NCBI GenBank assembly: GCA_011046415.1
Contig: DSAP01000090.1
Span: forward strand, 4,590-68,589
Direction of reading: 5' to 3'
Source of the DNA: a bacterium
GTDB lineage: Bacteria; Zhuqueibacterota; QNDG01; JABMRT01
DNA: 64,000 nt
Part shown: one piece after another, positions 20,401 to 53,689 of the stretch
Layout of the letters: the number at the start of each line of letters is the position of its first letter
How positions within the stretch are numbered: position 1 is the first letter of the stretch
Notes under the pieces: generated by a model
The model's input: the letters and a program-made list of their open reading frames with translations, nothing else
Told to the model about the DNA's origin: nothing
Databases searched by the model: none
Program-made: the position numbers and the translations under genes

Positions 20401-20832
20401 ATGTACGTCAATCGATTTCTTAACCGAACGGAAACCTGGCGCTGGCTGGACGATCTGCAGCGGGAAATGAACCGTTTATTCGACGGGTACGGATTCACGC
20501 CGCAACGGGCTTTTCCAGCCGTGAACATCCGGGCCAATGCGGAAGAAGCCCTGGTTTCCGCAGAATTGCCAGGGGTGGAACTGAAGGATCTCCGCCTTTC
20601 CGTGATGAACAACACGCTGACGCTCGAAGGCGTGCGCAGGGGCGAACCCGTGAAAGAAGGAGAATCCGTCCATCGTCAGGAGAGGAAAATCGGGGATTTC
20701 AAACGATTTCTGGAACTGCCGTTTTCAGTGAATCCGGATCGAATCACCGCCGGTCTCAAGAACGGCATCCTGACGATCCGGCTGCCCCGCAGGGAAGAAG
20801 ACAAACCCAAATCCATCCAGATTCAGGGATAA
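20401..20832 (+). CDS. Hsp20/alpha-crystallin small heat-shock protein
   Basis: Alpha-crystallin domain (ALVSAELPGVELKDLRLSV...NGILTIRLP). Confidence 0.9.
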   Translation: MYVNRFLNRTETWRWLDDLQREMNRLFDGYGFTPQRAFPAVNIRANAEEALVSAELPGVELKDLRLSVMNNTLTLEGVRRGEPVKEGESVHRQERKIGDFKRFLELPFSVNPDRITAGLKNGILTIRLPRREEDKPKSIQIQG

Positions 20833-20839
20833 TCAGGAG

Positions 20840-21250
20840 GTGATCGCCATGGCTGAAAAGGCTGTTCAAAAAATGGAAAGCCAGGAAGTCGAACGGGTCG
20901 AACGAACCCGTTCAGGAAGGACTTTCCTGCCGCCGACGGACATCATCGAAACCGAAAGCGAGATCATTCTCCTTGCGGATATGCCGGGAGTCGATGAGAA
21001 GACCGTCGATATCATACTCGAGAATAAATTGCTGACGATTCAGGGGAATGTCGAAACCCGGGACGATAACAATCTCCAGACGGTGTATGCCGAATTCGAA
21101 TCCGGAGATTATTACCGCGCATTTACGCTGAGTGACGACATCGACCGGGAGAGGATCCAGGCCAAGCTGAAGAACGGCGTGCTGAAACTCGTTCTTCCCA
21201 AGGCGGAGACGGCGAAATCACGCAAGATTGCGGTCCACACCGGAGAATAA
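20840..21250 (+). CDS. Hsp20/alpha-crystallin small heat-shock protein
   Basis: Alpha-crystallin domain (IILLADMPGVDEKTVDI...NGVLKLVLPK). Confidence 0.85.
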   Translation: MIAMAEKAVQKMESQEVERVERTRSGRTFLPPTDIIETESEIILLADMPGVDEKTVDIILENKLLTIQGNVETRDDNNLQTVYAEFESGDYYRAFTLSDDIDRERIQAKLKNGVLKLVLPKAETAKSRKIAVHTGE

Positions 21251-21272
21251 AAGCATGAAAGGAGGGATTGCG

Positions 21273-21767
21273 ATGAAGATCAAAGAGCTGATTCCTGCGC
21301 AGTGGGGACGGAGTGAGGTGCCCGTCAGGCGGACGATGGACTCCAGTCCCCTCCTCGATTTGCAACGTGGAATGAATCGCATGTTCGACCAGTTTTTCGA
21401 CGATTTCACGGGGTCCCGGTTTCCGGAATCAGCCCGGAATGTCTATCCGCAGATCGACATCCGCGAAACCGATCAGGCCGTCGAGGTGTCGGCCGAATTG
21501 CCCGGACTCGAACGCGAAGATGTGGATATCTCGATCGCGGCAGACGTGCTGACAATCCGGGGCGAGAAACGGCAGGAGAAAGAGGAGAAAAACGGCGGAG
21601 TCCGTTATGTCGAACGCACCTATGGTGCATTCCGGCGCGAAATTCCGATCCGGGCCGAGATCGAAGTCGAGAAGGTGAACGCGAAAATGAAAAACGGCGT
21701 TCTGACCGTAACGCTGCCCAAGAAACCGGAAAGCCGGCGTATGGCCAGACGCATCGAAGTGCAATGA
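21273..21767 (+). CDS. Hsp20/alpha-crystallin small heat-shock protein
   Basis: AAAGGAGGG ribosome-binding site then ATG at 21273; VEVSAELPGLEREDVDI...NGVLTVTLPKK. Confidence 0.85.
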   Translation: MKIKELIPAQWGRSEVPVRRTMDSSPLLDLQRGMNRMFDQFFDDFTGSRFPESARNVYPQIDIRETDQAVEVSAELPGLEREDVDISIAADVLTIRGEKRQEKEEKNGGVRYVERTYGAFRREIPIRAEIEVEKVNAKMKNGVLTVTLPKKPESRRMARRIEVQ

Positions 21768-21826: not shown

Positions 21827-24463
21827 TTATCTGTACAGGATCCGATCCCCGAGGACTTCAAATCTCCCGGTGAGACTGCCCGTGGTCTCCGCATCGGCAC
21901 TGCCGGAAAAGCCGGGTTGTTTGCCCCCGACGGCAATTTCGAAGAAACCGGGTTCGAGGATCTGATTGGCGGAATCATCCCAGAATGCGAGCTGTCGGGG
22001 TGTCAGCGTGAAGGCAACTTCCTTTTTTTGTCCGGGTGCGAGATGGATCCGCCGGAATCCCTGCAGGGAGCGGATGGGAACGGGAAATGACGCCTCGACA
22101 TCCGAGACATAGAGCTGTACGACTTCGTCGCCCGCCATGCCGCCCGCATTCTCCACCGTCACCGAGACACAGACATCTTCACCCGCCGTGACCGTATCGG
22201 GAATCTGCAACTCCGAATACACGAAACGGGTATAGCTGAGTCCGTGTCCGAAAGGATACAGGGGGTCTCCCGTGAAATAACGGTAAGTCCGTTCTTCCAT
22301 GGCATAATCCTCGAAAGGCGGAAGCTGATCCAGCGATTTGTAGACCGTGACCGGAAGGCGTCCGGCCGGGTTGCAGTCGCCGAAGAGCACATCCGCGATG
22401 GCGGTGCCTCCTTCCTGGCCCGGATACCAGACCTGGAGGATCGCTGGCAGATTCCGGTCGGCCCAGTTCACGGTCACGGCACTGCCGCTCATCAGGACGA
22501 GCACCACGGATTTCCCCGTCATTTTCAGGGCCTTTAGCAATTCCACCTGGATGTCCGGCAGGTCGATGCGGGTCCGGTCTCCGCCGGTGAATCCTTCGAT
22601 CCGGACGGGCATCTCCTCGCCTTCGAGCATTGCGCCGATACCGCCCGCGAAAACAATCAGATCCGAATTCTTCGCCGCCTCGATCGCGTCCCGGAAAGGA
22701 TCCCCCCCGATTTCAGACCATTCGAACCGGATCCATGCGGCTCCCTGATTCTGATAATACTCGACCGTGACGGGGAGGGCTTCCTTCGCCTTGAGCGAGA
22801 CCGTGGCGGTCCGGATCTCGATGTCGTGATCGGACCAGTTGTCGATGAGCGTATCCCCGTTCACGATGAGCCGGTAACCGTCGTCTCCCATCAGGGAGAA
22901 TCGGTAATTCCCGCCCTTGGGGGCGATGAGTTCGCCCTGCCATCTCACGGAGAAATTGGCATGGCCGAGTCCGGGAACGGCGCTGCGCCACCAGTTGCTG
23001 TCGATTTCCCGGTCCACGCGCACGTGGAGGGGTTCTCCCTCAAGCGCCTGATTCATGTAGTATTCCGCCCTGAGGCCGGCCTGGCCGTTCGTCCTGAGTA
23101 CACCGGCGGGCACCAGTTCGGCCGGCGGGTTTTTATCCACATAATTGCATCCGCGTGCATACAAGACCCGGGTGTTCTTCCCGACTTTATTTTGTATTCC
23201 CTCGAGCACGGTGACCGATTTGGAAGGCGTGCCGTTGTAATTCCCGAGCAGGACGAACCGGTTATCCGCGTTCGGACCGATCACCGCGATGGTCTTGATA
23301 TCCCGTTTCAACGGAAGCAGCCCGTCGTTCTTGAGCAACACGAGCGATTCCCGGGCGGCCCGGACCGAGAGGGCCCGGTGCGCTTCACAGTCGTTTTTTT
23401 CAAAAGGTATCCGGGCATAGGCCACCCGTTCGGGCGGGTCGAACATACCCAGCCTGATACGCGCCGTAAAGAGCCTGCGGAGGGCGACGTCGAGTTCCGC
23501 CTCGGTGATGAAACCGCGCCGGACGGCCTGTTTCAGGTCGCGGTATGAATTGCCGCATTCCAGGTCGGTGCCGGATTTCACGGAGAGGGCCGAGGCCTCG
23601 GCCGCGTCGCCGACGATCCGGTGGTGCCGATAGATGTCATCGATCGCCCCGCAATCCGAAACGATGTACCCCTCGAATCCCCAGTCATTCCGCAGGATGT
23701 CCCTGAGCAGCCTCGGGCCGGCGCAGCAGGCCTCCCCGAGATAGCGGTTGTAGGCGCACATGACAGACCAGGCGCCGGCCTCCTCGACGGTCGCCCTGAA
23801 TGCGGGGAGGTAGGTGTCGTACAGGTCGCGCAGGTCGGTGACGGCGTCGAAGTGGTGCCGGTCGGGTTCCGGGCCGCTGTGTACGGCGTAATGTTTCGGG
23901 GTGGAGACGACCTTGAGGTAATGCGGATCGTCTCCCTGAAGGCCTTTGACGAACGCCACGCCCATGCGTCCGGTCAGGTAGGGGTCTTCGCCGTAGGTTT
24001 CCTGCCCCCGGCCCCAGCGCGGATCCCGGAAGATGTTGATGTTGGGGCTCCACATGGTCAGGCCCTTGTACCGCCCGAAATCGCCCTGCCGGACGAATTC
24101 GTGATGTTTCGCGCGGGCTTCGGTCGAAGTCACGTCGGCCACCTCGAACATCAGGTCCGTATTCCAGGTCGCGGCGAGGCCGATAGCCTGGGGAAAGACC
24201 GTGGCGATTCCCGCGCGGGCCACGCCGTGCAGGCATTCGTTCCACCAGTTGTATTCCGGAATGCCGAGCCGGGGGATGGCGCGGGCGACATCCATCATCT
24301 GGGAGATTTTTTCCTCCAGCGTCATGCGGGAGATCAGGTCGTCCACCCGTTGTGAGACCGGCAGATCGGGATTCAGATAGGCCGGGCCCTCCTCTGCGAT
24401 GGAGAGTTGCATACCGGTCAGCGCGAGAAAGACGATTAAGAGGAAGACAGGTTTTCGTTTCAT
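21827..24463 (-). CDS. glycoside hydrolase family 3 beta-glucosidase/xylosidase with PA14-like insertion
   Basis: Signal peptide MKRKPVFLLIVFLALTG; GH3 N-domain motifs (RDPRWGRGQETYGEDP, KHYAVHSGPE), catalytic GFEGYIVSDCGAI, C-terminal fibronectin-like domain. Confidence 0.85.
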   Translation of the reverse strand: MKRKPVFLLIVFLALTGMQLSIAEEGPAYLNPDLPVSQRVDDLISRMTLEEKISQMMDVARAIPRLGIPEYNWWNECLHGVARAGIATVFPQAIGLAATWNTDLMFEVADVTSTEARAKHHEFVRQGDFGRYKGLTMWSPNINIFRDPRWGRGQETYGEDPYLTGRMGVAFVKGLQGDDPHYLKVVSTPKHYAVHSGPEPDRHHFDAVTDLRDLYDTYLPAFRATVEEAGAWSVMCAYNRYLGEACCAGPRLLRDILRNDWGFEGYIVSDCGAIDDIYRHHRIVGDAAEASALSVKSGTDLECGNSYRDLKQAVRRGFITEAELDVALRRLFTARIRLGMFDPPERVAYARIPFEKNDCEAHRALSVRAARESLVLLKNDGLLPLKRDIKTIAVIGPNADNRFVLLGNYNGTPSKSVTVLEGIQNKVGKNTRVLYARGCNYVDKNPPAELVPAGVLRTNGQAGLRAEYYMNQALEGEPLHVRVDREIDSNWWRSAVPGLGHANFSVRWQGELIAPKGGNYRFSLMGDDGYRLIVNGDTLIDNWSDHDIEIRTATVSLKAKEALPVTVEYYQNQGAAWIRFEWSEIGGDPFRDAIEAAKNSDLIVFAGGIGAMLEGEEMPVRIEGFTGGDRTRIDLPDIQVELLKALKMTGKSVVLVLMSGSAVTVNWADRNLPAILQVWYPGQEGGTAIADVLFGDCNPAGRLPVTVYKSLDQLPPFEDYAMEERTYRYFTGDPLYPFGHGLSYTRFVYSELQIPDTVTAGEDVCVSVTVENAGGMAGDEVVQLYVSDVEASFPVPIRSLQGFRRIHLAPGQKKEVAFTLTPRQLAFWDDSANQILEPGFFEIAVGGKQPGFSGSADAETTGSLTGRFEVLGDRILYR

Positions 24464-24631
24464 GGTATGGCTCCTATTGTGTTGTCTTCTATTTCTGAAT
24501 TGGGTTGATGGACTAAGTGGATGATATGGGCGTGGTGCATCGATTTCCCTCCACATTGGCGATCCTTTTCACCCGGGAAGAAATATAGATCGCAATACAT
24601 GGCATTGATTATCCCCGACGAACTGAATAGT

Positions 24632-26879: not shown

Positions 26880-27192
26880 GGATTCTGTGTACTCCCGGAA
26901 AACTAGGTAAACTTGGTTGAATGACTCATCGTCCGAACCCATATAAAATAATAAATCGAGATGCCATTTTCAATCGGAGATTATGAAACGGCCGGGGTTT
27001 GCCGTGCAGGGTGACCGGAACAGTGGAGGGAAACGGACGGATCCGAAAAGAAAAATGACATTCTTTTACAGTCTGTGTCGAGAACATATCGTATATTTTA
27101 ATAAGGAAAGTAAAAATAACGCAAACGAAGCATGATGTACGGATCCGGCTCTGTGATCGGAATGGGGACGGATCTGTCCATGGAGGTGCAAC

Positions 27193-29091
27193 ATGAAACG
27201 TGTCGTAAAATGGGGTCTCTTCCCGATTCTCGGCCTGCTGTCCTTAATCTGGTTTCTGATCCGCGTGATTCCCAAGCCGAGCCGTGTCACCTATCCCTGC
27301 ATCCAGGCGACGGCGCCCCTGGCCTCATCGTTCGTCCTCTGGCTGATGGGCCTGTTTTCCTCCGTGGTTTTGTTCAGGAAAGCGCGGGAATACCGGCTTC
27401 AGTCCCGGCATGGACTTTTCTCTCTGGCCGCGGTGGCGGGGGCGCTATTGTTTCTGATTTCATTCCTTCAGGACACGCATCCGGTCAAGGCCTTTCCCGT
27501 TTCGACGCTCGAAGGACCCAATCAGCCGATCGGGGAGGGAAAAGGCGTCCATCCCGGACGGGTGGTCTGGGTTCATGATCCCGATGCGACCAACGCCGAT
27601 TACAGTGCGTCCTGGATGAACTACTGGTATCAGGATGTCCATACGAATCAGGATGCCGTGAACCGGATGTTCTCGGACGGACTGCGGCGGTTGACGGGGG
27701 ATACCTCCGACGCCGCCGCCTGGGATTCAATTTTCCGCTATCACAATAACAGCACCGGCAAAGGGGACGTCGGGTATCAGGCCGGAGAGAAAATCGTCAT
27801 CAAGATCAATCTGAACGGACGGAACAATTATCCCCAGGAACCCAACATCAATACGTCCCCTCAAATCTGTTACACCGTGCTGGATCAGTTGATTCGTGTC
27901 GTGGGTGTGGCCCAGGCCGATATCCACATCGGCGATCCCAACATCGATTTCGACACCCCTCACTGGAACAAATGCCATTCCGCGTTTCCCGATGTAAAAT
28001 ACTGGGGGACGGGGGCCGGTCGCACCCCTCCGGTCCGATCGGAGGAAAAGGTGCTCTTTACCAGCGACGGTTCCATCGGCGACTGGCTGCCTCAAAGTTA
28101 TCTGGATGCCGCCTATATGATCAACATTCCTGTATTCAAAAAGCACCATCGCTCCGGGATATCATTGTCGAGCAAGAACCATTTCGGATCCGTTACCCCC
28201 TTCAATCAGGGCGCATGGCACTGGCATCCCAGTCTGCCCTGTCCTGACGGCGGTGCGGATGTGAGCAACGGCGAGATGGGCGCATACCGGTGTTTCGTCG
28301 ATCTCATGGGGCACAAGGATCTGGGCGGAAAGACGATCCTCCATCTCGTCGACGGTTTATGGGGTTCCACAAACTGGGGGCATCCTCCCGTCAAATGGCG
28401 CATGACGCCGTTCCACGACGACTGGCCCTCGTCGCTCTTTCTCTCCCAGGATCCGGTGGCCGTCGAATCCGTCTGCTTTGACTTTTTGTATCATGAATTC
28501 GATTCAAGTCACCCGACCGAAGGCGCGTATGACCGGCGGGACAATTCCGGTCCTTTCCCTCAATATGCGGGGACCCAGGATTATTTGCATCAGGCCGCGG
28601 ATTCCCGGAACTGGCCGGCCGGCATCCAGTATGATCCGGAAAACGACGGCACGATCCTGCCCGCGAGTCTGGGAGTCCACGAACACTGGAACAATCCCGA
28701 GGACAAGCAGTATTCTCGGAATCTCGGTCTGGACACGGGGATCGAACTGTTGCTGATATCGGGGTCGTCCGCGGTCGGGGATCCCGGGACAGGCATGGTT
28801 CGGGGATTCATCCTGGAACAGAACTATCCCAATCCGTTCAACCCGATGACCGAGATCCGCTACCGGCTGTTTTCCTCCGCCTCGGTATCCCTGGCGATCT
28901 ATCGGGCAGACGGGCGGCGGATCCGCACCCTGGCCGAAGGATCCCAGGATGCCGGGATCCACGTCCGGCAATGGGACGGTCTGACCGACAGCGGCCTTCC
29001 CGCGGCCTCGGGTGTGTATTTCTGCCGGATCGATGTGAGGAATGAGGACGGGATTTCCCAACAGGTACGCAAGATGGTTCTGAACCGGTAG
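27193..29091 (+). CDS. DUF362-domain protein with N-terminal hydrophobic segments and a C-terminal T9SS sorting domain
   Basis: Three N-terminal hydrophobic helices, DUF362 core (HFGSVTPFNQGAWHWHP...GHKDLGGKTILHLVDGLWG), C-terminal ILEQNYPNPFNPMTEIRY (T9SS type-A sorting-domain hallmark). TAG stop. Confidence 0.7.
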   Translation: MKRVVKWGLFPILGLLSLIWFLIRVIPKPSRVTYPCIQATAPLASSFVLWLMGLFSSVVLFRKAREYRLQSRHGLFSLAAVAGALLFLISFLQDTHPVKAFPVSTLEGPNQPIGEGKGVHPGRVVWVHDPDATNADYSASWMNYWYQDVHTNQDAVNRMFSDGLRRLTGDTSDAAAWDSIFRYHNNSTGKGDVGYQAGEKIVIKINLNGRNNYPQEPNINTSPQICYTVLDQLIRVVGVAQADIHIGDPNIDFDTPHWNKCHSAFPDVKYWGTGAGRTPPVRSEEKVLFTSDGSIGDWLPQSYLDAAYMINIPVFKKHHRSGISLSSKNHFGSVTPFNQGAWHWHPSLPCPDGGADVSNGEMGAYRCFVDLMGHKDLGGKTILHLVDGLWGSTNWGHPPVKWRMTPFHDDWPSSLFLSQDPVAVESVCFDFLYHEFDSSHPTEGAYDRRDNSGPFPQYAGTQDYLHQAADSRNWPAGIQYDPENDGTILPASLGVHEHWNNPEDKQYSRNLGLDTGIELLLISGSSAVGDPGTGMVRGFILEQNYPNPFNPMTEIRYRLFSSASVSLAIYRADGRRIRTLAEGSQDAGIHVRQWDGLTDSGLPAASGVYFCRIDVRNEDGISQQVRKMVLNR

Positions 29092-29176: not shown

Positions 29177-29863
29177 ATGGACAAGTCAATCAAGCTGCTG
29201 CTTCTGTTCTTCTTCATCGCGGGTACGGGTTGCCGCCGGCAGGCGACCGAGCCGGTGACGACACCGGGCGTAATACAGGGCACGGTCCGGTCGCTTCTGA
29301 TGACCGGCGCTGTGACCGTTCCGTCCGCCTTTGTTTTCTGGGAAGACAGCCTTCTCGCCACGACCGATGCAGAAGGAGATTACCGGATCGACAAGCTGGA
29401 ACCCGGCGAGTATCTGTTGACCGGTTCCGCCCTGTTCTGCGGGGATTCCATCCGGGCGGTCCGGGTGGAGTCCGGAGCCACGGCCGTCCTCGATTTCGAC
29501 CTGATTCCCGATTCGAGCACCGGGAGAGTATACGGCGAGTTTCAGGATGATTTCCTGTTCCGGCAGCGTCTCGTGGAAAATCCGTCCATGTCGGAGTGGA
29601 GCGAGAGAGAGATATTCGATGCGTATACCGGCGCGACGCTCCAGTCGAAAACACTCGGATACGCCCTGCCCGACCGCATGGTGTTCCTGGGTGACAGCAT
29701 CCTGGCTTATGCGGATTCCTGGGGGCAGTTCTGGTTCACGCTCCCGAGCGGGACGTATCCGCTGACAGCAACCTGTGAGGGGTACCGGAGCCGGACCCGG
29801 GTGGTGACCGTTCCCGCGGACGGGCGTGTCTATCTCAATTTCTTCCTGCCGAGGTCGGAATAG
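29177..29863 (+). CDS. lipoprotein with two carboxypeptidase-regulatory-like (CarbopepD_reg) beta-sandwich domains
   Basis: Signal peptide MDKSIKLLLLFFFIAGTGC; GTVRS...EPGEY and GRVYG...PSGTYPLTATCEGY repeats. TAG stop. Confidence 0.55.
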   Translation: MDKSIKLLLLFFFIAGTGCRRQATEPVTTPGVIQGTVRSLLMTGAVTVPSAFVFWEDSLLATTDAEGDYRIDKLEPGEYLLTGSALFCGDSIRAVRVESGATAVLDFDLIPDSSTGRVYGEFQDDFLFRQRLVENPSMSEWSEREIFDAYTGATLQSKTLGYALPDRMVFLGDSILAYADSWGQFWFTLPSGTYPLTATCEGYRSRTRVVTVPADGRVYLNFFLPRSE

Positions 29864-30161: not shown

Positions 30162-31286
30162 TCAGGTCATGTCGTCCCGGCCGGATAGGTAGCCGATATG
30201 ACCGTCATGCAGCGGGCGCTTCTTCCTCGGCATCTCTCTTTCGGCAAGACCGGTTATTCCGTAAAGTCTGTAGACGGGATCGGCATGGACACATGCCAGG
30301 TATTCTCCTTTTGGGTCCGCATGTTTGTCTTTCTCCGCACTCGCCACATACACGAGCCGGGGTGCCATGAGTGCGATCAGCTTGTGCTGATCGATGGGTA
30401 ATTTGTTTTCCTGGCCGTTGTACTGTTTATAGTTGTTGCTGAACCAGTGTGGAAATTTCCGGTTGATCCGTTTGATCCGCTCACCTTTTTTGCGTCTGGC
30501 CAGTGCGGCTCCCGTACAACCTGAATTGTTGCTGATCACCAGTTCGAAACGTTCATCCTTGGCCCCGCACCAGAGAGCCGCCTTGCCGCCGCGGGAATGG
30601 CCGACCACGGCCATCCGGCTTTCATCGATTTCGGGGTCCGATTCAAAATAATCCATGGCGCGACTGGCGCCCCATGCCCATGCAGCCACGGCTCCCCAGG
30701 CGTCGGGGAGGGGGGCTTCATCCAAATCATCGAACAAACCGATGACCCCTTTCCGGAAATGGAATTTATCGTCCGGTGCCAGATCGGAGATGTGATAAGC
30801 AGCCGCCGTGTAACCCCGAAGAACGATTTCTTCCGCGGGCCAGAACGGTGTTCGGTTTTGCCGGGTGGGATCGATATTTTCTTCACGGGACCGGTGGCAA
30901 ATCAGGAGGAATCCCGGGACCGGTTTCCGTGTCTCGTTCGGGATGAATATGACGAGTGGAATCATACCCTCTCCGGCGGGTCCGGTGAAGCGGATCGCAA
31001 CTAATTTGCGTGTCGCACGGCCCGACATTGCAGACCGGGTCTCTTCGATGATGTCGAAGCGAAGGTCATCCGGCCGCGCGGTTGAGGCACGTCCGTAGAC
31101 TTTTGATCGAAAAAGTTCCAGGATTTCAGGCCGTCGAATCGTCTCCCATTCGGTCTGTGTCTGAATCCGGTCACCTTCACGGGTTTTAAGAGGGTCCGGC
31201 AGCGACAGTCTGCTTCCGATCGCAGCACAGGATATCATCAGAAAAGAGGCGGTCGCGATGACAGGGTGCCGATTCAAATTCATACG
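30162..31286 (-). CDS. alpha/beta-hydrolase, glucuronoyl-esterase-like (CE15-like)
   Basis: Signal peptide/lipobox MNLNRHPVIATASFLMISC; VVGHSRGGKAALW resembles the CE15 G-C-S-R-x-G nucleophile motif. Confidence 0.5.
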   Translation of the reverse strand, partial: RMNLNRHPVIATASFLMISCAAIGSRLSLPDPLKTREGDRIQTQTEWETIRRPEILELFRSKVYGRASTARPDDLRFDIIEETRSAMSGRATRKLVAIRFTGPAGEGMIPLVIFIPNETRKPVPGFLLICHRSREENIDPTRQNRTPFWPAEEIVLRGYTAAAYHISDLAPDDKFHFRKGVIGLFDDLDEAPLPDAWGAVAAWAWGASRAMDYFESDPEIDESRMAVVGHSRGGKAALWCGAKDERFELVISNNSGCTGAALARRKKGERIKRINRKFPHWFSNNYKQYNGQENKLPIDQHKLIALMAPRLVYVASAEKDKHADPKGEYLACVHADPVYRLYGITGLAEREMPRKKRPLHDGHIGYLSGRDDMT

Positions 31287-31524
31287 GTTTTGCCGTGATA
31301 TTGGGAACCGAAGTACCTGTCTGAATAACTTGCGTATCACCCAGACGAAAACCGTTCTCACAGTTTCGGTGGATTTCACCATCAGGGTGCTGAACATTCA
31401 GCTTGAATCCGGTTTGTCTTCAGGATCAATTTCACACGGATATCACCCCGGGCCGGGTCGCGCTTAAAAAACGGATACCTCCCCTGATCGTTCCCGGAGT
31501 AGGCGTCCGGTTATCCCAATCTGC

Positions 31525-32595
31525 CTATTTTTTTACCTTGTCCGGCAGGTCGTCCACCCATTTCAGGATCCGGTCGCAGTTGTATTTGCTGACTTCGTAG
31601 ACCAGGCCGTCGTCCTGGACATAGAGATACGCCCCCCTGTCTTCCCCGAGGTCCTTTCCGAAAATAAAGTTGTGCTGCTGTCCGTCCCGGGTCTTGAAGA
31701 CGAGATAGGTTCCGGGATTGTTGAGGTTCATTCCATATTTGGCGGGTTTGTTCATATCGGCCAATGTGTTGCCGATCCGGTCCACCACCTCCGATGCGAA
31801 GACGCCGGTGATATCACGGAGAAAATTCTCCATCTCCTTCGCATCCATTTCGACTTCACGGCCGCTTCCGGAGAGTACCCAGTAACTTTCCTTGCTCGTG
31901 GTCGTCGTGGTGTCGTCCTTCTGTTCAGTGACTTCCCGTTCCATCTTCTTCAGATAGCGATATATGCCGCACCTGGCAATCGCGACTTCCCTGAGCTGCT
32001 CCTTGTCCTGGTCGATGGCCTTCAGGTCGAAGAAAGAACGCGGTCTGAAACGGGTGAGCGTGTCGATATCGCCGTAGACAGACAGGGCGGAGAGGATGTT
32101 GTTGTCCGTGAAGTAGACCCTGTCGCGGTCCGCGAAACGGACGAATCCGCCGTCCGAATCCCCGGCTTTCTTCCCGATGAGCAGGTTGGCGAGGGGCCTG
32201 CCGGTCTCATCCTTCAGCATCAGTTGGATGCCCTTGTCGTCCGTGAGATCATATTGGGGGTGATGCCTCGGGTCGGCGCTGCGTACTTTCCCCGTCATCT
32301 GGATGAGATCCTCGATCAGTTTGTCGATCCGGCTCTTCTGGGCTTTCACATTGAACGAGGTGGGGATTCGCCACCTGTCCCGCTCGGTCCGGGTGAAAAT
32401 CATCTGGGCGCGTCCTTCAGGGCCGGTGTGTTTGGACACCTCGATGGCCGCCACATCCTCGGCAGCCACGCCGATAAGAATGGTTTGTACGAGTTCGTCA
32501 ATCCGGACGGTGCTGTGCCGCGGCCGCGTGACGAAGAACAGAATCAGCAGTGCGATGAATACCCCGGCAAAAATCTTGATTTCTTTTTCTTTCAT
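31525..32595 (-). CDS. DUF4340-domain protein (GldG-associated)
   Basis: N-terminal TM anchor then about 330-aa periplasmic domain; directly downstream of gldG, as usual for DUF4340. Confidence 0.55.
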   Translation of the reverse strand: MKEKEIKIFAGVFIALLILFFVTRPRHSTVRIDELVQTILIGVAAEDVAAIEVSKHTGPEGRAQMIFTRTERDRWRIPTSFNVKAQKSRIDKLIEDLIQMTGKVRSADPRHHPQYDLTDDKGIQLMLKDETGRPLANLLIGKKAGDSDGGFVRFADRDRVYFTDNNILSALSVYGDIDTLTRFRPRSFFDLKAIDQDKEQLREVAIARCGIYRYLKKMEREVTEQKDDTTTTTSKESYWVLSGSGREVEMDAKEMENFLRDITGVFASEVVDRIGNTLADMNKPAKYGMNLNNPGTYLVFKTRDGQQHNFIFGKDLGEDRGAYLYVQDDGLVYEVSKYNCDRILKWVDDLPDKVKK

Positions 32596-32702
32596 CTGTC
32601 CTAGCCTCTCGGGTTTGAAAGGGGTTGCATTTTACCGTCAAACGAAAGACGCCGGAGAAATCGGGGAAGACGGAAAAGATTTCTCCGTATCTTTCAATCA
32701 GC

Positions 32703-34469
32703 CTATTTCTTCTTCCTTTTAACGGTCAGGTAGATGCCGAGGAGGACGAAGACGGCAGGGCTGAACCAGACCACGAATCCCTTGGCCAAGGCCTTGCCTG
32801 CGGGGCCGATCGTCCTGATGCGCCTGGCCGTGATGGTTTTCGACCGGATATTGATCAGGTCGTCTCCGAGCGTGAGTGCATCCACCGTGTTGCGCAGCAG
32901 GGCGACGTGGCTCGGGATCGACTGAAGCATGTCGCTCTTGAACATGTTCGCACAACCGATCGCCAGGATCTTGCCGAATTTCCCCTTTACGGACAATTCG
33001 ACCGGTACGGGTTCTTTCTCAGCCTCCTCGTCCGACTCGGGCCAGGGCGGAACCACCCCATCGGAGAATTTCGGTTTGAATGAGCCCTCCACGAGAATGC
33101 CGAGCGGCTGTCTCCGCAGGACCGCCTCCTGCGGCGGCGGATCGGTATTCACCGGACCGTATCCCATTCCGTCTCGTGTCCAGCTCACGTTGCTGGAAGT
33201 GAAGAGCGTTTTGTGGGACAGGGTGTCCTGTTTCATCCTGTCATCGTGTACGATCAGGCGGGTTCCATACAAGTAGAAGAGTTCCGTGATTTTGTTCGAG
33301 ATCGAGAGCCGGTTGTTGATGTTCTCGGCATTGACACGGATCATGACCGGTTTGGTGACCGGTTCGAGTCGCTGCTCCCTGACCTGCATGAATCCGAGGT
33401 TGCGGGTGCTGTAGACCGGCACCTGGATGTAGGCCGTATTCTGATCCATGAACATCCGCGTATCGAATTCGAATCCATAGTGTCTCACGAGGTCATTCAG
33501 ATTGACCCGGGTCGGCATGCCGCGCAGTTCGAAATTTCCAGGCGTCGTATACTGAACCTGATAATTATGCATCTGTGCGGCCAAGATGACGGAGACGCCT
33601 TCTTGAATGAGTTTATCCAGTTCATAAAGCTGTCGTTCGGCGAGCGGTTGATCCGCCATGACGAGCATGGTCTGGATATTTTCTGGGATGGGATCGTCCT
33701 TTTTGATATTCGTCCGCGTGACGTCGTAACCGGCTTCCCGAAGGACTCTGACGGTGGCCTCATACATATCCGGGGGCGCCTGCTGGTAATGCTGCATCAT
33801 ATGAGGGGGAATTTCGGGTTGTGCGGGATAAAAGCCGATTCTCGGGCGTCTGTTCGCGACCAGTTTATAAATTCGCGACATGATCTCGTATTCCAGACTG
33901 CCGAAGGTTTCTGGCCGGACTTCCTCGATTACATCTTCCTTGCGATCCAGATAACTCAGGACGAGGGAGGAGTAGACGCGTTTGATCGCAAACTCATCCC
34001 GTTCGGTACTCTGGACGCCGAAGGGGATCACGCCTTTCTCGAAAAGCCGTTCGGCAATTTTTTTGCGCGTCACACCGGGCGCATCCGTGTCATCTTTTGT
34101 CCCGGCCTTTTCGGATTCCAGTGCCTCGCGTTCCTCCTCCGCAGAAGGATCGAAAACGGTATAGGTCAGCTTTCCGTCCGAGGCCATTTCGAGTTCCCTG
34201 AGCTTGTCGATGACGTCCCGTTCCAGATTCTTCCACTGGGTGGGCATCTTTTCGGAGGAGGATACATAGTACGTGATGTCTATCGGCGCCTCGAGCTGAG
34301 ACAGAATCGTGCGTACGGAAGGCGACAGCCTGTAGACCTGGTCGGCTGTGAGATCGAACCGGCCGACATTGAAATTGCCGATCACCATATTCAACAAAAC
34401 GGCGATTCCGGTCACGAGCAACGCACCGATCACGAATCGGGCGGTGAAATCATTTTTCCAGTCCTTCAT
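32703..34469 (-). CDS. gldG: GldG-like ABC-transporter-associated protein
   Basis: 588 aa; N- and C-terminal TM helices flanking a large periplasmic domain; ABC-type uncharacterised transport system architecture. Confidence 0.7.
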   Translation of the reverse strand: MKDWKNDFTARFVIGALLVTGIAVLLNMVIGNFNVGRFDLTADQVYRLSPSVRTILSQLEAPIDITYYVSSSEKMPTQWKNLERDVIDKLRELEMASDGKLTYTVFDPSAEEEREALESEKAGTKDDTDAPGVTRKKIAERLFEKGVIPFGVQSTERDEFAIKRVYSSLVLSYLDRKEDVIEEVRPETFGSLEYEIMSRIYKLVANRRPRIGFYPAQPEIPPHMMQHYQQAPPDMYEATVRVLREAGYDVTRTNIKKDDPIPENIQTMLVMADQPLAERQLYELDKLIQEGVSVILAAQMHNYQVQYTTPGNFELRGMPTRVNLNDLVRHYGFEFDTRMFMDQNTAYIQVPVYSTRNLGFMQVREQRLEPVTKPVMIRVNAENINNRLSISNKITELFYLYGTRLIVHDDRMKQDTLSHKTLFTSSNVSWTRDGMGYGPVNTDPPPQEAVLRRQPLGILVEGSFKPKFSDGVVPPWPESDEEAEKEPVPVELSVKGKFGKILAIGCANMFKSDMLQSIPSHVALLRNTVDALTLGDDLINIRSKTITARRIRTIGPAGKALAKGFVVWFSPAVFVLLGIYLTVKRKKK

Positions 34470-34470
34470 C

Positions 34471-35199
34471 TTAAAATTTTCTCCTTTCCAATACTTTGGC
34501 GTTCAGAAAAAGGAACAGCGCAGTAAAGGACAAGAAATAGACGACGCTGCGGAGGTCGACCACGCCGCGTTCAATGTCGTTGAAATGGCGCGAGACGCCG
34601 ACATAATGATACAGGAAGGATCCCAGACCCGGAATCCAGCCGTCGATCACCATGGGCACATAGCGCCATCCGATGAGTACGAAGAATCCGCAGACGAGGC
34701 TGGTGATGATCAGCGAAATGATCTGATCAGAGAAAAACGCGGAAATAAAGATGCCGAGGGCCAGAAAGAAAGCCCCCAGAAGGATGGCGCCGAAATATCC
34801 GCCCGCGATGGGTCCGAAATCCGGTCTTCCCAGGAACAGGAGCATAAGCGGGATGGTCAGGGTGCCCGCCAGGGCGACCAGATAGAAAACCAGACTGGCC
34901 AGGTATTTTCCGAGCACGATGTGTTCCGTCCTGATGGGAAGGGTGAGGAGTAGTTCCACGGTCCCGAGTTTCTTTTCTTCGGACCACAGCCGCATCGTGA
35001 TTGCGGGGATGAAAATCATCCCGAGCACGAGGGGCAACGTAGAGAAGAAGGCGCGCATGTCGGCATTGCCGAAGAAGAAGAAATGGAACATATAAAGGCC
35101 GGTGTTCAACACGATGAAGATGATGCTGAAGACATAGGCGATCGGGGAGTAGAAATAGGCGTCGAATTCCCGCTTGAAGATGACCTTGACGTCGTTCAT
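34471..35199 (-). CDS. gldF: ABC-2 family permease (GldF-like)
   Basis: 242 aa, six TM helices; 4-nt overlap with gldA. Confidence 0.7.
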   Translation of the reverse strand: MNDVKVIFKREFDAYFYSPIAYVFSIIFIVLNTGLYMFHFFFFGNADMRAFFSTLPLVLGMIFIPAITMRLWSEEKKLGTVELLLTLPIRTEHIVLGKYLASLVFYLVALAGTLTIPLMLLFLGRPDFGPIAGGYFGAILLGAFFLALGIFISAFFSDQIISLIITSLVCGFFVLIGWRYVPMVIDGWIPGLGSFLYHYVGVSRHFNDIERGVVDLRSVVYFLSFTALFLFLNAKVLERRKF

Positions 35200-36149
35200 G
35201 CGTCGCCTCCCTGACTGTTTTTATCTCCTGAGGTCAGCCGGATGAAGGTGTCTTCGAGAGACATCTGTTCCGGTGTAAAATTAAAAATATCCCATTTTTT
35301 TTCGCGGATCAGTTCATTCAGCTTGCCGGTCAGATCGACCTTCGCCTCTGAAAAAAGATGCGCACCGACGACCCCGCGCGGAAGCGCTTCATCGTAAATG
35401 ATATCCTTGAGATCCATGGACCGGACGGATGAATCAAAATCTTTTTTGGGTGCCCTGACTGCGATATAGACCGAATTCTGATCCGAAACCCTGCGGACGA
35501 GATCCTCAAATTTACCATCCGCTGCGATCCGCCCGTTATGGATCATGAGGATGCGGTCCGACACGGCGGCCGCTTCGGACAGGATGTGGGTAGAGAGGAT
35601 GATGGTCTTCTCGTGGGCCAGCTCCTTGATCAGCTTGCGGATTCCGATGATCTGGAGCGGATCGAGTCCCGAAGTCGGCTCGTCGAGTATCAGCACGGCC
35701 GGATCGTGGATGAGGGCCTGCGCGAGACAGGTACGCTGTCTGAATCCCTTGGAGAGCTCGCCGATTTTGCGCCGGAGCACAGTGCCCAGACCCGCAGCCT
35801 CGACCACCCAGTCGAAACGTGATTTAAACGCGCCGTTCAGGTGACGCGCCCGGCCGACGAATTCCAGGTATTCATGAACGAGCATGTCGGCATAGAGGGG
35901 TGTGGTCTCAGGCAGGTAGCCGATCAGTTCGCGCACTTCGAGGGCGTTTTCAACCACATCGAAACCGCCGACCGTCACCGTTCCCGATGAGGGTGCCGTG
36001 TAGGTGGTGATGATTTTCATGGTCGTGGATTTGCCGGCGCCGTTGGGCCCGACGAACCCCACGATCTCGCCTTTCGGGATGGAGAAACTCACATTCGCTA
36101 CAGCCTGGATGGGGCCGTAATTCTTACAGACATTCTTGAGTGTAATCAT
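35196..36149 (-). CDS. gldA: ABC transporter ATP-binding protein (GldA-like)
   Basis: Walker A GPNGAGKST, ABC signature LSKGFRQR, Walker B ILDEPTSGLD. Confidence 0.85.
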   Translation of the reverse strand: MITLKNVCKNYGPIQAVANVSFSIPKGEIVGFVGPNGAGKSTTMKIITTYTAPSSGTVTVGGFDVVENALEVRELIGYLPETTPLYADMLVHEYLEFVGRARHLNGAFKSRFDWVVEAAGLGTVLRRKIGELSKGFRQRTCLAQALIHDPAVLILDEPTSGLDPLQIIGIRKLIKELAHEKTIILSTHILSEAAAVSDRILMIHNGRIAADGKFEDLVRRVSDQNSVYIAVRAPKKDFDSSVRSMDLKDIIYDEALPRGVVGAHLFSEAKVDLTGKLNELIREKKWDIFNFTPEQMSLEDTFIRLTSGDKNSQGGDA

Positions 36150-39276: not shown

Positions 39277-40041
39277 ATGAAATCCCATTTTGAAAAACAC
39301 GTCCTGCGTCATCCTCCGTGGTATCCGATTTTAATCACCGCAACCCTTTTCTCGTTTTTGGGATGTCAACAATCCAGAAGGGAGAGCGCCATGCAGCAGG
39401 GAGAAGACCCGTATGTCAGACAAAGGCATGCGATGGTTTCAAAGCAGATCGCCGGCCGCGGGGTGAAGGATCCGCGTGTCCTGGCCGCGATGGAAAAGGT
39501 GCCGCGACATCTCTTCGTTCCCGACAACATCAGGTCGCACGCCTATGAGGACAGCCCCCTGCCGATCGGATACAATCAGACCATATCCCAGCCTTACATC
39601 GTGGCGTACATGACGGAGCAGCTTGTCCTGGAGGGCGACGAACGTGTTCTCGAGGTCGGTACGGGGAGCGGTTATCAGGCCGCCGTGCTGGCCGAACTGG
39701 TCCCTGAGGTGTATACGATCGAGATCATCGAACCCCTGTCGGTCACGGCACGGGAACAGATCGAGAAGGCGGGATTTGAGAACGTCCACTTCCGGGTCGG
39801 CGACGGATACCTGGGATGGCCGGAAGCCGCGCCGTTCGATGCGATCATGATCACGGCCGCTCCCAGGCAGATACCGGAAACGCTCATCGGCCAGCTCCGG
39901 GTTGGTGGAAGGATGATTGTTCCCGTCGGACAATGGCATCAGGAACTCCTCCTTATCACCAAAAAAGAAAAAGACTATTCCGTGAAGAAGCTCCTGCCCG
40001 TACGTTTCGTTCCCATGGTCCGATCCCGGTCTGATGAATGA
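39277..40041 (+). CDS. pcm: protein-L-isoaspartate O-methyltransferase with N-terminal lipoprotein-type signal peptide
   Basis: PIMT motifs (VLEVGTGSGYQAA, GDGYLGWPEAAPFDAI, GGRMIVPVG) preceded by a 40-aa extension MKSHFEKHVLRHPPWYPILITATLFSFLGC. Confidence 0.8.
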   Translation: MKSHFEKHVLRHPPWYPILITATLFSFLGCQQSRRESAMQQGEDPYVRQRHAMVSKQIAGRGVKDPRVLAAMEKVPRHLFVPDNIRSHAYEDSPLPIGYNQTISQPYIVAYMTEQLVLEGDERVLEVGTGSGYQAAVLAELVPEVYTIEIIEPLSVTAREQIEKAGFENVHFRVGDGYLGWPEAAPFDAIMITAAPRQIPETLIGQLRVGGRMIVPVGQWHQELLLITKKEKDYSVKKLLPVRFVPMVRSRSDE

Positions 40042-40858: not shown

Positions 40859-40885
40859 CCAGATGAAAAGATCTGGATTGGTTCC

Positions 40886-52564: not shown

Positions 52565-52573
52565 ACCATCCCT

Positions 52574-52672: not shown

Positions 52673-53689
52673 TTGAAGGGCAGAGTAATCCTGGTTGTTT
52701 TTTATTTCCTGATTTCGGGAAATACGGTAACCGGTCTGACGGTGGGGAAATACGCGGGAGATTTCATGGCTGTGGGTGTCGGCGCCAGGGCGCTCGCCCT
52801 CGGAGGCGCTTTCACGGCCGTTGCAGATGATATTTCCGCAGGATACTGGAACCCGGCCGGTCTGTCGCGGCTTTCTCATGTCCAGGTGATGATGATGCAC
52901 GCCGAACGGTTTGGGGGGATTGTGAATTGGGATTTCATGGGAGTCGGGCTGCCGCTCCGGGGCGAATCCGCGGTTGCCCTTGGCCTGTATCGGCTCGGGA
53001 TCGACGGGATCCCCCTGACCCGGTTAAGGGATCCAAAACGGGAAATGGGCGATATCTATTTCGACGAATCCGGGAGGCGGCTTCAAAATGTGCCTTATGC
53101 CTATAAATACACCAGTCCCAATGATCTGGCACTTGTCGGTTCCTACAGCTCAAAGTTGGATGACAAGATACGGATCGGATTGAACGCCAGGCTGATTCGT
53201 CGCTCGGCGGATGTCTATGAAGCATGGGGAATGGGTTTCGACGCCGGTATCCTTGTTCATCTTGAAAACCGATGGCAAGTCGGAGCCATGATTCGGGACG
53301 CCACCGGTACGCTGCTGGCCTGGAACGGAGGACGGAAAGAATGGATTCTGCCCAGATTGCAGGTGGGTGTCGGTTATCCGTTCCAGGCCCGTTCGTTCTC
53401 CTTTCTCCCCATACTCGATGTGGCCATCCATTTCGACAATACCGTGCAAACCACGTTCAAGATGGGACGGGTAAGCATGGAGATCATGGGAGGCCTTGAA
53501 ATCTGTTACCAGAACCGAATCGCTTTGCGGTTCGGTTCAAACCGCGGTGCTTTGACGGCCGGTACCGGTTTCCGGATCGCTTTCTTTTCTGTGGATTATG
53601 GTTTTCAGACCCATTCGGAACTCGGACTCACACACCGTGTCTCGCTCACGATAACGGATATTCGGGATAAGCTCAGTCAAAACCGTTAA
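52673..53689 (+). CDS. PorQ/PorV-family (FadL-like) outer-membrane protein, T9SS-associated
   Basis: Signal peptide; N-terminal hallmark GARALALGGAFTAVADDISAGYWNPAGL; 338 aa beta-barrel-like. Confidence 0.55.
   Translation: MKGRVILVVFYFLISGNTVTGLTVGKYAGDFMAVGVGARALALGGAFTAVADDISAGYWNPAGLSRLSHVQVMMMHAERFGGIVNWDFMGVGLPLRGESAVALGLYRLGIDGIPLTRLRDPKREMGDIYFDESGRRLQNVPYAYKYTSPNDLALVGSYSSKLDDKIRIGLNARLIRRSADVYEAWGMGFDAGILVHLENRWQVGAMIRDATGTLLAWNGGRKEWILPRLQVGVGYPFQARSFSFLPILDVAIHFDNTVQTTFKMGRVSMEIMGGLEICYQNRIALRFGSNRGALTAGTGFRIAFFSVDYGFQTHSELGLTHRVSLTITDIRDKLSQNR

What the first reader, a model, noticed from the sequence alone, without database searches (positions are those of the whole stretch)
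27193..29091. T9SS cargo signature on a DUF362 protein that also has three N-terminal hydrophobic helices
The C-terminus (ILEQNYPNPFNPMTEIRY...) is the hallmark of a type-A T9SS sorting domain, which requires full Sec export. The first 100 aa, however, contain three predicted membrane-spanning segments before the DUF362 core. Either the annotated start is wrong and an internal start yields a normal signal peptide, or this is an unusual membrane-tethered precursor. DUF362 is an uncharacterised domain and has not been linked to secretion.
Basis: partly seen in the sequence, partly recalled or inferred. Interest (0 to 1): 0.5.

Follow-up and report, generated by a model that had tools for sequence, protein, structure and literature searches.

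The report
Secreted DUF362 enzyme with three-helix leader
This is a correctly called gene for a secreted enzyme of unknown activity, and its odd three-helix N-terminus is a strongly conserved, undescribed membrane leader found on over a thousand related enzymes, with a third helix that looks like a cleavable export signal.

Summary
ORF 27193..29091(+) encodes 632 aa with three hydrophobic helices (aa 10-26, 45-61, 75-91), a DUF362 core and a C-terminal Ig-like domain. That domain passes NCBIfam's T9SS type-A cutoff and resembles the PorU, PorZ and mirolase CTDs. A PorV/PorQ-family gene lies in the same window.

The "wrong start" reading is refuted. There is a GGAGGT Shine-Dalgarno site, two pipelines call the same start, Met52 is not conserved, and the N-terminus is among the best-conserved parts of the family.

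The N-terminal module is a two-helix hairpin with an invariant basic loop, R-V-I-P-K-P-S-R-x-x-Y-P-C. It occurs in at least 1153 protein clusters and 595 genome loci across FCB phyla, Planctomycetota and Verrucomicrobiota. It was always fused to this DUF362 core, while the C-terminal tails vary (T9SS CTD, CBMs, PKD, beta-helix, LamG).

Helix 3 has signal-peptide anatomy: a K/R-rich n-region, a 19-residue h-region and a polar c-region ending A/V-x-A (Ala 94% at -1). The likeliest route is Sec insertion, signal peptidase I cleavage after Ala100, then T9SS export.

One caveat remains. Bacteroidota members never have Gln at +1, unlike their neighbours, so processing may be atypical. What the hairpin does is unknown.

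This is a new variant of a known kind, of moderate interest.

The parts
27182..27187 (+). Shine-Dalgarno GGAGGT, 5 nt upstream of the ATG
   Evidence: Read directly from the sequence. It supports the annotated start.
27193..27261 (+). Basic N-tail (MKRVVKW) and hydrophobic helix 1 (aa 1-23). G14 and W20 are invariant.
   Evidence: Hydropathy 2.27. Column statistics on 250 sequences. AF2 helix at aa 2-25.
27262..27306 (+). Invariant basic loop R-V-I-P-K-P-S-R-V-T-Y-P-C-I-Q (aa 24-38), net charge +4, with a single invariant Cys36
   Evidence: R24, K28, P29, R31, Y34, P35 and C36 are at 100%. Loop charge is +3.98, sd 0.32. No Pfam or NCBIfam model covers it.
27307..27375 (+). Hydrophobic helix 2 (aa 39-61), rich in Ala, Ser and Gly. 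P42 and F47 are invariant.
27376..27411 (+). K/R-rich loop 2 (aa 62-73, RKAREYRLQSRH), which serves as the n-region of the signal-peptide-like helix 3. The family motif here is S-R-Y-x-L-F.
   Evidence: Mean charge +4.5. RR directly before helix 3 occurs in 1 of 250 sequences.
27412..27468 (+). Hydrophobic helix 3 (aa 74-92), acting as the h-region. Its length is fixed at 19 and small residues sit at positions 76, 83 and 90.
   Evidence: Length 19.0, sd 0.26, mean hydropathy 2.25. Column statistics.
27469..27492 (+). Polar c-region QDTHPVKA (aa 93-100) ending in V-K-A, the putative signal peptidase I site after Ala100
   Evidence: Position -1 is Ala 94% (with Gly and Ser). Position -3 is A/V/T/L/S/I. 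The alignment turns gappy and variable right after it. AF2 pLDDT is below 50 at aa 94-102.
27517..28767 (+). DUF362 / LarA-fold catalytic core (aa 109-525; the Pfam DUF362 match covers aa 201-430)
28768..28803 (+). Flexible linker (aa 526-537)
   Evidence: AF2 pLDDT below 50 at aa 525-537
28804..29091 (+). C-terminal T9SS type-A-like sorting domain (aa 538-632) plus the stop codon. It has seven beta-strands and Lys627 in the last strand.
29177..29863 (+). Downstream lipoprotein with two CarboxypepD_reg domains, probably co-transcribed and conserved in the closest relatives
   Evidence: Pfam. No terminator lies in the 85-nt gap. The same gene follows in L001, L003, L004, L005 and L009.
52673..53689 (+). 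PorV/PorQ-family outer-membrane protein, a T9SS-associated component in the same genome
   Evidence: NF033709 scores 115.2 bits against a cutoff of 90. The best match is the putative PorV2 model, E=1e-54.

Best explanation
The gene encodes a secreted LarA-fold (DUF362) enzyme from an FCB-group bacterium whose closest relatives are labelled KSB1 or Calditrichota. It is made with a conserved, roughly 100-aa three-helix membrane leader.

Helices 1 and 2 form a hairpin joined by an invariant, strongly basic loop (RVIPKPSRxxYPC). Helix 3 has the anatomy of a Sec signal peptide: a K/R-rich n-region, a 19-residue hydrophobic core, and a polar c-region ending in A/V-x-Ala.

Proposed route, all of it inferred:
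1. Helix 1 drives co-translational membrane insertion through Sec/YidC.
2. Helix 3 threads the DUF362 domain into the periplasm.
3. Signal peptidase I cuts after Ala100 and releases a roughly 530-aa protein.
4. That protein folds, and its C-terminal Ig-like domain hands it to the type IX secretion system for export to the surface or the medium.

What is shown directly: the hairpin is specific to this DUF362 clade and independent of the outer-membrane route. It is present whether the tail is a T9SS domain, as in FCB phyla, or CBM, PKD, beta-helix or LamG modules, as in Planctomycetota and Verrucomicrobiota. It therefore most likely serves the enzyme domain in cis, for targeting, holding or maturation at the membrane surface, rather than serving T9SS.

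The variable carbohydrate-binding tails suggest the enzyme acts on an extracellular glycan. Its chemistry is unknown.
For: - Start and ORF.
- N-terminal module conservation: 110 of 120 close homologues have three hydrophobic segments. G14, W20, R24, K28, P29, R31, Y34, P35, C36, P42 and F47 are invariant in 74 and in 250 sequences.
- Breadth: a profile of aa 1-76 finds 1153 clusters at E<=1e-3 and 865 at E<=1e-10 among 1.84 billion representatives. At least 599 stretches, 595 of them confirmed, occur in species-representative genomes of KSB1, Calditrichota, Ignavibacteria, Bacteroidales, Cytophagia, WOR-3, Fibrobacterota, Planctomycetota and Verrucomicrobiota.
- Obligate coupling to the core: every full-length representative and every intact locus copy with the motif also has a DUF362 domain (own core HMM, or Pfam DUF362 for the few with a divergent core). 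No stand-alone module was seen.
- Swappable tails: Por_Secre_tail, PKD plus beta-helix, CBM6/35 plus F5/8-C, and LamG.
- Signal-peptide anatomy of helix 3: -1 is Ala 94%, -3 is A47/V23/T8/L7/S7/I7, loop 2 carries +4.5, and a gappy variable stretch follows the Ala. AF2 is disordered at aa 94-102.
- CTD. A PorV/PorQ gene is in the window. Other genes in 13 related loci share the same tail.
- T9SS cargo are known to cross the inner membrane by Sec and lose a signal peptide (PMC11285876; PMC5837995).
Against: - Cleavage is inferred, not shown. No signal-peptide predictor was available.
- In 13 copies from Bacteroidota-labelled loci, the residue after the conserved Ala is never Gln. About 10 of 11 ordinary signal-peptide proteins encoded in the same set of loci do follow the Bacteroidetes Q-rule, under which a mean of 71% of SPase I substrates have Gln at +1 (PMC5837995).
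- Helix 3 is unusually long (19 residues), of nearly fixed length, and carries conserved small residues with heptad spacing. That looks like a packed transmembrane helix rather than a free signal peptide.
- The loop between helices 1 and 2 carries +4 charges yet must face the periplasm in this topology, against the positive-inside rule.
- Pfam's own Por_Secre_tail model is below its gathering score for this protein, at 15.4 against 27.
- Only one T9SS-associated gene was seen. No other T9SS gene appeared in the window ORFs scanned or in the 10 kb downstream.
Confidence: 0.6

Rival explanations
1. Uncleaved anchor. The three helices stay attached and hold the DUF362 domain on the periplasmic face of the inner membrane. 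The basic loop and Cys36 sit next to the catalytic domain and act on a membrane-proximal or anionic substrate. The C-terminal Ig-like domain would then be a structural or binding module, or would be used only after some other proteolytic release.
For: - The Q-rule is absent at the putative site in Bacteroidota members although their neighbours obey it.
- Helix 3 has fixed length and heptad small residues, so it looks like part of a packed three-helix unit.
- Only 6-17 residues separate the conserved Ala from the first core motif, which would keep the core at the membrane beside the invariant loop.
- The module and core are never found apart.
Against: - Ala at -1 (94%) with small or aliphatic -3, set in otherwise variable sequence, is hard to explain without a peptidase.
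- The tails are extracellular-type modules: T9SS CTD, CBM6/35, F5/8-C, PKD and beta-helix.
- The CTD is under clear selection in FCB members, and T9SS cargo must be free in the periplasm.
Confidence: 0.25
2. Dual Sec-Tat targeting, as in Streptomyces Rieske protein Sco2149. Helices 1 and 2 would be inserted by Sec. The folded, cofactor-loaded DUF362 domain would then be carried across by Tat using helix 3 as an internal Tat signal with a degenerate S-R-Y-x-L-F motif, before T9SS export.
For: - The architecture is the same: two transmembrane helices, a basic loop, a third helix and a globular LarA-fold domain.
- The motif before helix 3 matches the Tat consensus S-R-R-x-F-L except that the second Arg is Tyr.
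- A related DUF362-plus-CTD protein in L063 has a twin-arginine-type motif, FSRRTFLRAIG, read by eye since no Tat-signal model scored.
- The precedent is documented in PMC5449189 and PMC3471235 and PMC13186574.
Against: The defining features were tested and not met. A twin arginine sits next to helix 3 in only 1 of 250 sequences. Helix 3 is very hydrophobic (mean 2.25), whereas handover to Tat needs low hydrophobicity. There is no clear positive charge after the helix: the c-region averages +0.2 and the next 12 residues average -1.0.
Confidence: 0.05
3. Annotation artefact. The true start is internal (for example Met52) and the protein has an ordinary N-terminal signal peptide.
For: None beyond the oddity of the architecture.
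Against: - A Shine-Dalgarno site lies at the annotated ATG.
- ENA and JGI make identical calls.
- Met52 is present in only 13% of sequences.
- Residues 14-47 are the most invariant stretch of the family across phyla.
Confidence: 0.01
4. The C-terminal domain is only an FlgD-like Ig fold with no sorting role, and the T9SS signature is a false positive.
For: Pfam FlgD_ig scores above its threshold while Pfam Por_Secre_tail scores below. PDB sequence hits are to FlgD.
Against: - TIGR04183 is above its cutoff, and the best NCBIfam hit is PorU's own CTD.
- The domain sits at the extreme C-terminus, has seven strands and has Lys in the last strand.
- Structural matches include the PorU, PorZ, RemA and mirolase CTDs.
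- Many homologues pass Pfam PF18962.
- The same tail sits on unrelated neighbouring genes.
- The tail was detected only in loci labelled as FCB phyla (plus unlabelled MAGs) and in none of the Planctomycetota or Verrucomicrobiota loci, matching the known T9SS distribution (PMC11285876).
Confidence: 0.07

Closest known systems
T9SS type-A CTD cargo proteins (e.g. P. gingivalis RgpB, PorU, PorZ; T. forsythia mirolase)
   Same: A C-terminal 7-strand Ig-like sorting domain of about 90 aa with Lys in the last strand. It passes the TIGR04183 cutoff and matches solved CTDs structurally. The host is an FCB-group organism with a PorV/PorQ gene.
   Different: Known cargo begin with a plain N-terminal signal peptide. 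Here the signal-peptide-like helix is the third of three helices, preceded by a conserved 70-aa two-helix hairpin. Bacteroidota members do not show the usual Gln at +1.
DUF362 (PF04015) / LarA superfamily, Pfam clan CL0471
   Different: Sequence identity to LarA enzymes is 9-13%. This protein is extracytoplasmic, whereas LarA enzymes are cytoplasmic and use a nickel-pincer cofactor made in the cytoplasm. Whether any cofactor is bound here is unknown.
DUF362-CBM9-dockerin proteins from lignocellulose-degrading consortia (PMC5742341)
   Same: A DUF362 core fused to extracellular carbohydrate-binding or anchoring modules, which suggests a role in glycan processing.
   Different: Those were reported from other communities with dockerin and CBM9 tails. 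No N-terminal three-helix leader was described for them.
Dual Sec-Tat-targeted polytopic proteins (Sco2149 Rieske protein and relatives, PMC5449189)
   Same: Two N-terminal transmembrane helices, a basic cytoplasmic loop, a third helix, then an exported globular domain.
   Different: No twin arginine, a very hydrophobic third helix, and a conserved A-x-A site after it. The Sco2149 helix is not cleaved.
Extended signal peptide region (ESPR) of autotransporters and two-partner secretion proteins (comparison from general knowledge)
   Same: A conserved N-terminal extension ahead of a normal signal peptide, on proteins bound for an outer-membrane secretion system.
   Different: ESPR is a short soluble extension of about 25 aa, not a transmembrane hairpin. 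No Pfam match to it was found at E<=1.

Membership tests
T9SS type-A CTD cargo | C-terminal sorting-domain HMM match at the curated threshold | tested here: met
   NCBIfam TIGR04183 scores 25.2 bits against a cutoff of 23. Pfam PF18962 scores only 15.4 against 27 for this protein but passes in many homologues.
T9SS type-A CTD cargo | Compact 3+4 Ig-like beta-sandwich of seven strands at the extreme C-terminus, with a conserved Lys in the last strand | tested here: met
T9SS type-A CTD cargo | T9SS machinery encoded in the same genome | tested here: inconclusive
   A PorV/PorQ-family gene lies at 52673..53689 (NF033709, 115 bits against 90). SprA/Sov, PorK/L/M/N and PorU could not be looked for because only the window plus 10 kb was available.
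T9SS type-A CTD cargo | N-terminal Sec signal peptide removed by signal peptidase I | tested here: inconclusive
   A signal-peptide-like helix with a conserved A/V-x-A site exists, but it is internal as helix 3. The Q-rule is not obeyed in Bacteroidota members. Cleavage was not demonstrated.
DUF362 / LarA clan | Pfam PF04015 match above the gathering score | tested here: met
   59.3 bits against 24, aa 201-430
DUF362 / LarA clan | LarA-like fold of the core | tested here: met
LarA racemases/epimerases (DUF2088) | Nickel-pincer cofactor ligands and catalytic histidines; lar biosynthesis genes in the genome | not tested
   There is no sequence-level alignment to LarA, and the genome is not available. 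This protein should not be filed as a LarA enzyme.
Dual Sec-Tat-targeted membrane proteins | Twin-arginine motif immediately before the last transmembrane helix | tested here: not met
   RR occurs at that position in 1 of 250 sequences. The motif there is S-R-Y-x-L-F.
Dual Sec-Tat-targeted membrane proteins | [quoted passage not shown] | tested here: not met
   Mean Kyte-Doolittle hydropathy is 2.25 over 19 residues. The c-region charge is +0.2 and the following 12 residues average -1.0. Criteria come from PMC5449189.
FlgD hook-capping protein | FlgD N-terminal domain and a flagellar gene context | tested here: not met
   Only the Ig-like domain matches. There is no FlgD N-domain and no flagellar genes nearby.

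The most novel reading that the evidence does not exclude
The three-helix leader is more than a targeting device. It would be a small functional membrane protein made as a polyprotein with every member of a large clade of exported LarA-fold enzymes. Its invariant periplasm-facing basic loop and single Cys would bind an anionic ligand, or help mature or load the enzyme domain as it emerges from the translocon. Release from the leader would follow a non-standard processing step, as hinted by the missing Gln at +1 in Bacteroidota. This would be a new class of cis-acting membrane pro-domain for secreted bacterial enzymes, shared by T9SS and non-T9SS phyla.
Probability: 0.3. Interest if true: 0.7.

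Novelty: new variant of a known kind. Interest (0 to 1): 0.45.

Why it matters
T9SS cargo, and secreted bacterial enzymes in general, are expected to start with a simple signal peptide. Here a large uncharacterised enzyme clade always carries an almost invariant two-helix hairpin in front of its signal-peptide-like helix. The clade spans more than 1100 clusters at 50% identity across FCB phyla, Planctomycetota and Verrucomicrobiota, often in tandem copies and often fused to carbohydrate-binding modules.

No Pfam or NCBIfam model covers the hairpin, and no paper in the searched library describes it. Understanding it could show a new way of coupling inner-membrane insertion to the maturation or release of an exported enzyme. 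It would also give a handle on the function of exported DUF362 proteins, which are relatives of the nickel-pincer racemases and probably act on extracellular glycans.

For annotation, it shows that three predicted transmembrane helices should not be used to reject these proteins as secreted cargo, nor to move their start codons.

Tried and rejected
- Internal or alternative start: rejected.
- Other CTD-bearing genes in the window: none found with a family-specific HMM or a degenerate NYPNPFNP DNA pattern.
- A universally conserved neighbour that might explain the leader: none in 80 loci. Only a downstream CarboxypepD_reg lipoprotein is shared, in the closest six loci, and neighbours otherwise link only through the shared CTD. 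Pfam families among 133 neighbours are heterogeneous, with a few CAZymes.
- Disulfide partner for Cys36 in the mature domain: none is conserved; C367 reaches only 58%.
- Stand-alone N-module genes: the short database hits are contig-end fragments.
- Tat hypothesis: tested and not met.
- Q-rule as independent support for cleavage: it came out against rather than for.
- Extending the contig to look for more T9SS genes: 10 kb downstream holds none, and the upstream look-up failed because the product was not on record.
- AFDB fold library: unavailable.
- Literature on DUF362, PF04015 or COG2006: nothing on this leader. Several hits were to DUF3623 or DUF3627.
Full report
**1. The observation**

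The window holds an ORF at exactly 27193..29091 (+) encoding 632 aa. Its ATG is preceded by GGAGGT five bases upstream. Two independent pipelines, ENA and JGI, call the same 632-aa product on contigs of 112 kb and 62 kb.

A hydropathy scan finds three hydrophobic segments and no others in the protein, at aa 10-26, 45-61 and 75-91. Pfam places DUF362 at aa 201-430 with E=7e-16.

The C-terminal roughly 95 aa match several models:
- Pfam FlgD_ig: 36.4 bits, above threshold.
- Pfam Por_Secre_tail: 15.4 bits, below its threshold of 27.
- NCBIfam TIGR04183, the T9SS type A sorting domain: 25.2 bits against a cutoff of 23. The best NCBIfam match overall is the CTD region of PorU.

**2. Is the C-terminus a T9SS signal?**

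The AlphaFold2 model was built on 74 homologues and has mean pLDDT 86.4. It shows a seven-strand sandwich between aa 539 and 630, behind a disordered linker at aa 525-537, with Lys627 in the last strand.

Further support:
- Many homologues pass Pfam's Por_Secre_tail threshold.
- The same tail sits on unrelated neighbouring genes in 13 related loci.
- The window itself encodes a PorV/PorQ-family outer-membrane protein at 52673..53689, at 115 bits against a cutoff of 90.
- Within the family, the tail was detected only in loci labelled as FCB phyla or carrying no phylum label, and in none of the Planctomycetota or Verrucomicrobiota loci. This matches the reported distribution of T9SS.

No other CTD gene lies in the 64-kb window. 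No further T9SS gene was seen in the window ORFs scanned or in the next 10 kb. I accept the T9SS reading as likely, with the machinery only partly verified.

**3. Is the start wrong?**

No. The top 120 homologues are 54-64% identical over about 100% of the length, and 110 of them show the same three hydrophobic segments.

In alignments of 23, 74 and 250 sequences the N-terminus is among the most conserved parts of the protein. G14, W20, R24, K28, P29, R31, Y34, P35, C36, P42 and F47 are invariant. The candidate internal start, Met52, is a Met in only 13% of sequences.

**4. What the N-terminus is**

A profile of aa 1-76 searched against 1.84 billion representative proteins finds 1153 clusters at E<=1e-3 and 865 at E<=1e-10.

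The genomes are labelled KSB1, Calditrichota, Ignavibacteria/Melioribacteraceae, Bacteroidales, Cytophagia, WOR-3, Fibrobacterota, Pirellulales, Phycisphaerae, Sedimentisphaerales and Verrucomicrobiota, plus a few Bacillota MAGs.

Every full-length representative and every intact locus copy that has the motif also has a DUF362 domain (matched by my core HMM, or by Pfam DUF362 for the few with a divergent core). The C-terminus, in contrast, varies:
- T9SS tail
- PKD plus right-handed beta-helix
- CBM6/CBM35 plus F5/8 type C
- Laminin-G
- other tails, some of which look dockerin-like by eye

Short database entries are contig-end fragments, not stand-alone modules. Paralogues are often in tandem, with four in a row in L013.

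No Pfam or NCBIfam model covers the module. The papers holding DUF362, PF04015 or COG2006 do not describe it.

The conserved unit is therefore "hairpin + helix 3 + DUF362 core", and the secretion tail is an add-on.

**5. How the conflict with T9SS is most simply resolved**

Helix 3 is built like a Sec signal peptide:
- It follows a loop with mean charge +4.5.
- Its hydrophobic core is 19 residues long.
- An 8-residue polar stretch comes next and ends in a site where -1 is Ala in 94% of 250 sequences (Gly or Ser otherwise) and -3 is A47/V23/T8/L7/S7/I7.
- Immediately after that Ala the alignment becomes gappy and variable, until the first core motif P-N-x-P-M-G-x-G-K-G.

AF2 confidence collapses at aa 94-102. 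In the window protein the site reads V-K-A|F-P.

Cleavage there by signal peptidase I would free a roughly 530-aa periplasmic protein that T9SS can take. That is the route described for T9SS cargo. I consider this the best explanation, at about 0.6.

**6. What does not fit**

- **Q-rule.** In Bacteroidetes a mean of 71% of SPase I substrates have Gln at +1 (PMC5837995). In 13 family copies from Bacteroidota-labelled loci the residue after the conserved Ala is V, N, F, I, A, I, Y, K, I, I, A, N or N, and never Gln. About 10 of 11 ordinary signal-peptide proteins encoded in those same loci do have Gln at +1, including one CTD cargo. The family either escapes the rule or is processed differently.
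- **Helix 3 shape.** It has nearly fixed length (19.0, sd 0.26) and conserved small residues at positions 76, 83 and 90. That suggests it packs against helices 1 and 2.
- **Loop charge.** The loop between helices 1 and 2 carries an invariant +4 charge yet must face the periplasm if the enzyme domain is exported. This implies strong functional selection, and binding of an anionic ligand is one possibility.
- **Cys36.** It has no conserved cysteine partner in the mature domain.

These points keep an uncleaved-anchor model alive at about 0.25. They also suggest the leader does something beyond targeting.

**7. The Tat analogy**

The layout recalls the dual Sec-Tat-targeted Rieske protein Sco2149 (PMC3471235, PMC5449189, PMC13186574). 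The motif before helix 3, S-R-Y-x-L-F, is the Tat consensus with the second Arg replaced by Tyr. A more canonical DUF362 protein with a CTD in locus L063 has a twin-arginine-type motif, FSRRTFLRAIG, read by eye since no Tat-signal model scored.

The defining features nevertheless fail here. RR sits next to helix 3 in only 1 of 250 sequences, helix 3 is very hydrophobic, and no positive charges follow it. The motif may be an evolutionary relic. I give Tat dependence about 0.05.

**8. The enzyme**

K204, K316, H318 and K328 are nearly universal and are shared with the Tat-type DUF362. Many further His, Asp and Glu residues are conserved within the clade.

The carbohydrate-binding tails and the published DUF362-CBM9-dockerin proteins (PMC5742341) point to an extracellular glycan-related activity. 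In the window the gene is flanked by a GH3 xylosidase-like gene and a CE15 glucuronoyl esterase, and some related loci have CAZyme neighbours. The context is not conserved, however, and the chemistry remains unknown.

**9. Verdict**

The start is right, and the third helix most likely acts as a cleavable signal peptide.

A widespread, nearly invariant and undescribed two-helix pre-signal module is obligately coupled to an exported LarA-fold enzyme clade, and it shows an unexplained departure from normal signal-peptidase site statistics in Bacteroidota.

I rate this a new variant of a known kind, with moderate interest (0.45). Cleavage, topology and the role of the hairpin all need experiments.

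Noticed in passing
L008, L013, L018, L029, L039, L041, L046, L059, L068, L070, L078 (position after the conserved Ala, query residue 101): None of the 13 family copies from Bacteroidota-labelled loci has Gln after the putative signal-peptidase site. About 10 of 11 ordinary signal-peptide proteins in those same loci do, so the family departs from the Bacteroidetes Q-rule.
   Followed up: partly
L063:1-1650: A more canonical DUF362 protein (Pfam 114 bits) carries a T9SS CTD and a twin-arginine-type motif FSRRTFLRAIG (read by eye; no Tat-signal model scored). It lies 4 kb upstream of a three-helix-leader DUF362 in an Ignavibacteriaceae MAG. Exported DUF362 proteins therefore appear to use at least two inner-membrane entry signals.
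   Followed up: partly
window 27397-27414 (aa 69-74) and the homologous positions in 250 sequences: The residues just before helix 3 form S-R-Y-x-L-F, the Tat consensus with the second Arg replaced by Tyr. This may be a relic of a Tat signal.
   Followed up: partly
window 29177-29863 (+): A lipoprotein (lipobox IAGTGC) with two CarboxypepD_reg domains lies 85 nt downstream with no terminator in between. The same gene follows the DUF362 gene in five close relatives (L001, L003, L004, L005, L009).
   Followed up: partly
window 21827-24556 (-) and 30162-31397 (-): A GH3 beta-xylosidase-like gene with a PA14 insert and a CE15 glucuronoyl esterase flank the locus on the opposite strand. This glucuronoxylan flavour is not conserved in other loci.
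   Followed up: partly
window 31525-36149 (-): A gene cluster of DUF4340, a GldG-like ABC auxiliary protein, an ABC-2 permease and an ABC ATPase. It resembles the gliding-associated GldAFG transporter.
   Followed up: no
window 20401-21767 (+): Three tandem HSP20-family small heat-shock genes.
   Followed up: no
L013 (four copies); L001, L003, L042, L068, L077, L026 (two each): Three-helix-leader DUF362 genes often occur as tandem paralogue arrays.
   Followed up: no
L079:5932-7649: The copy in a Fibrobacterota MAG is split over several frames. It is either a pseudogene or an assembly error.
   Followed up: no
window 40000-56000: G+C drops from about 0.58 in the first 40 kb to about 0.50. The cause was not examined.
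   Followed up: no
L010, L011, L017, L030, L056, L057, L077 (C-termini): Planctomycetota members share recurrent C-terminal endings such as ...LAMCVRGG.. and ...SLAMVVRGGE, which suggests another conserved but unidentified tail domain in place of the CTD.
   Followed up: no
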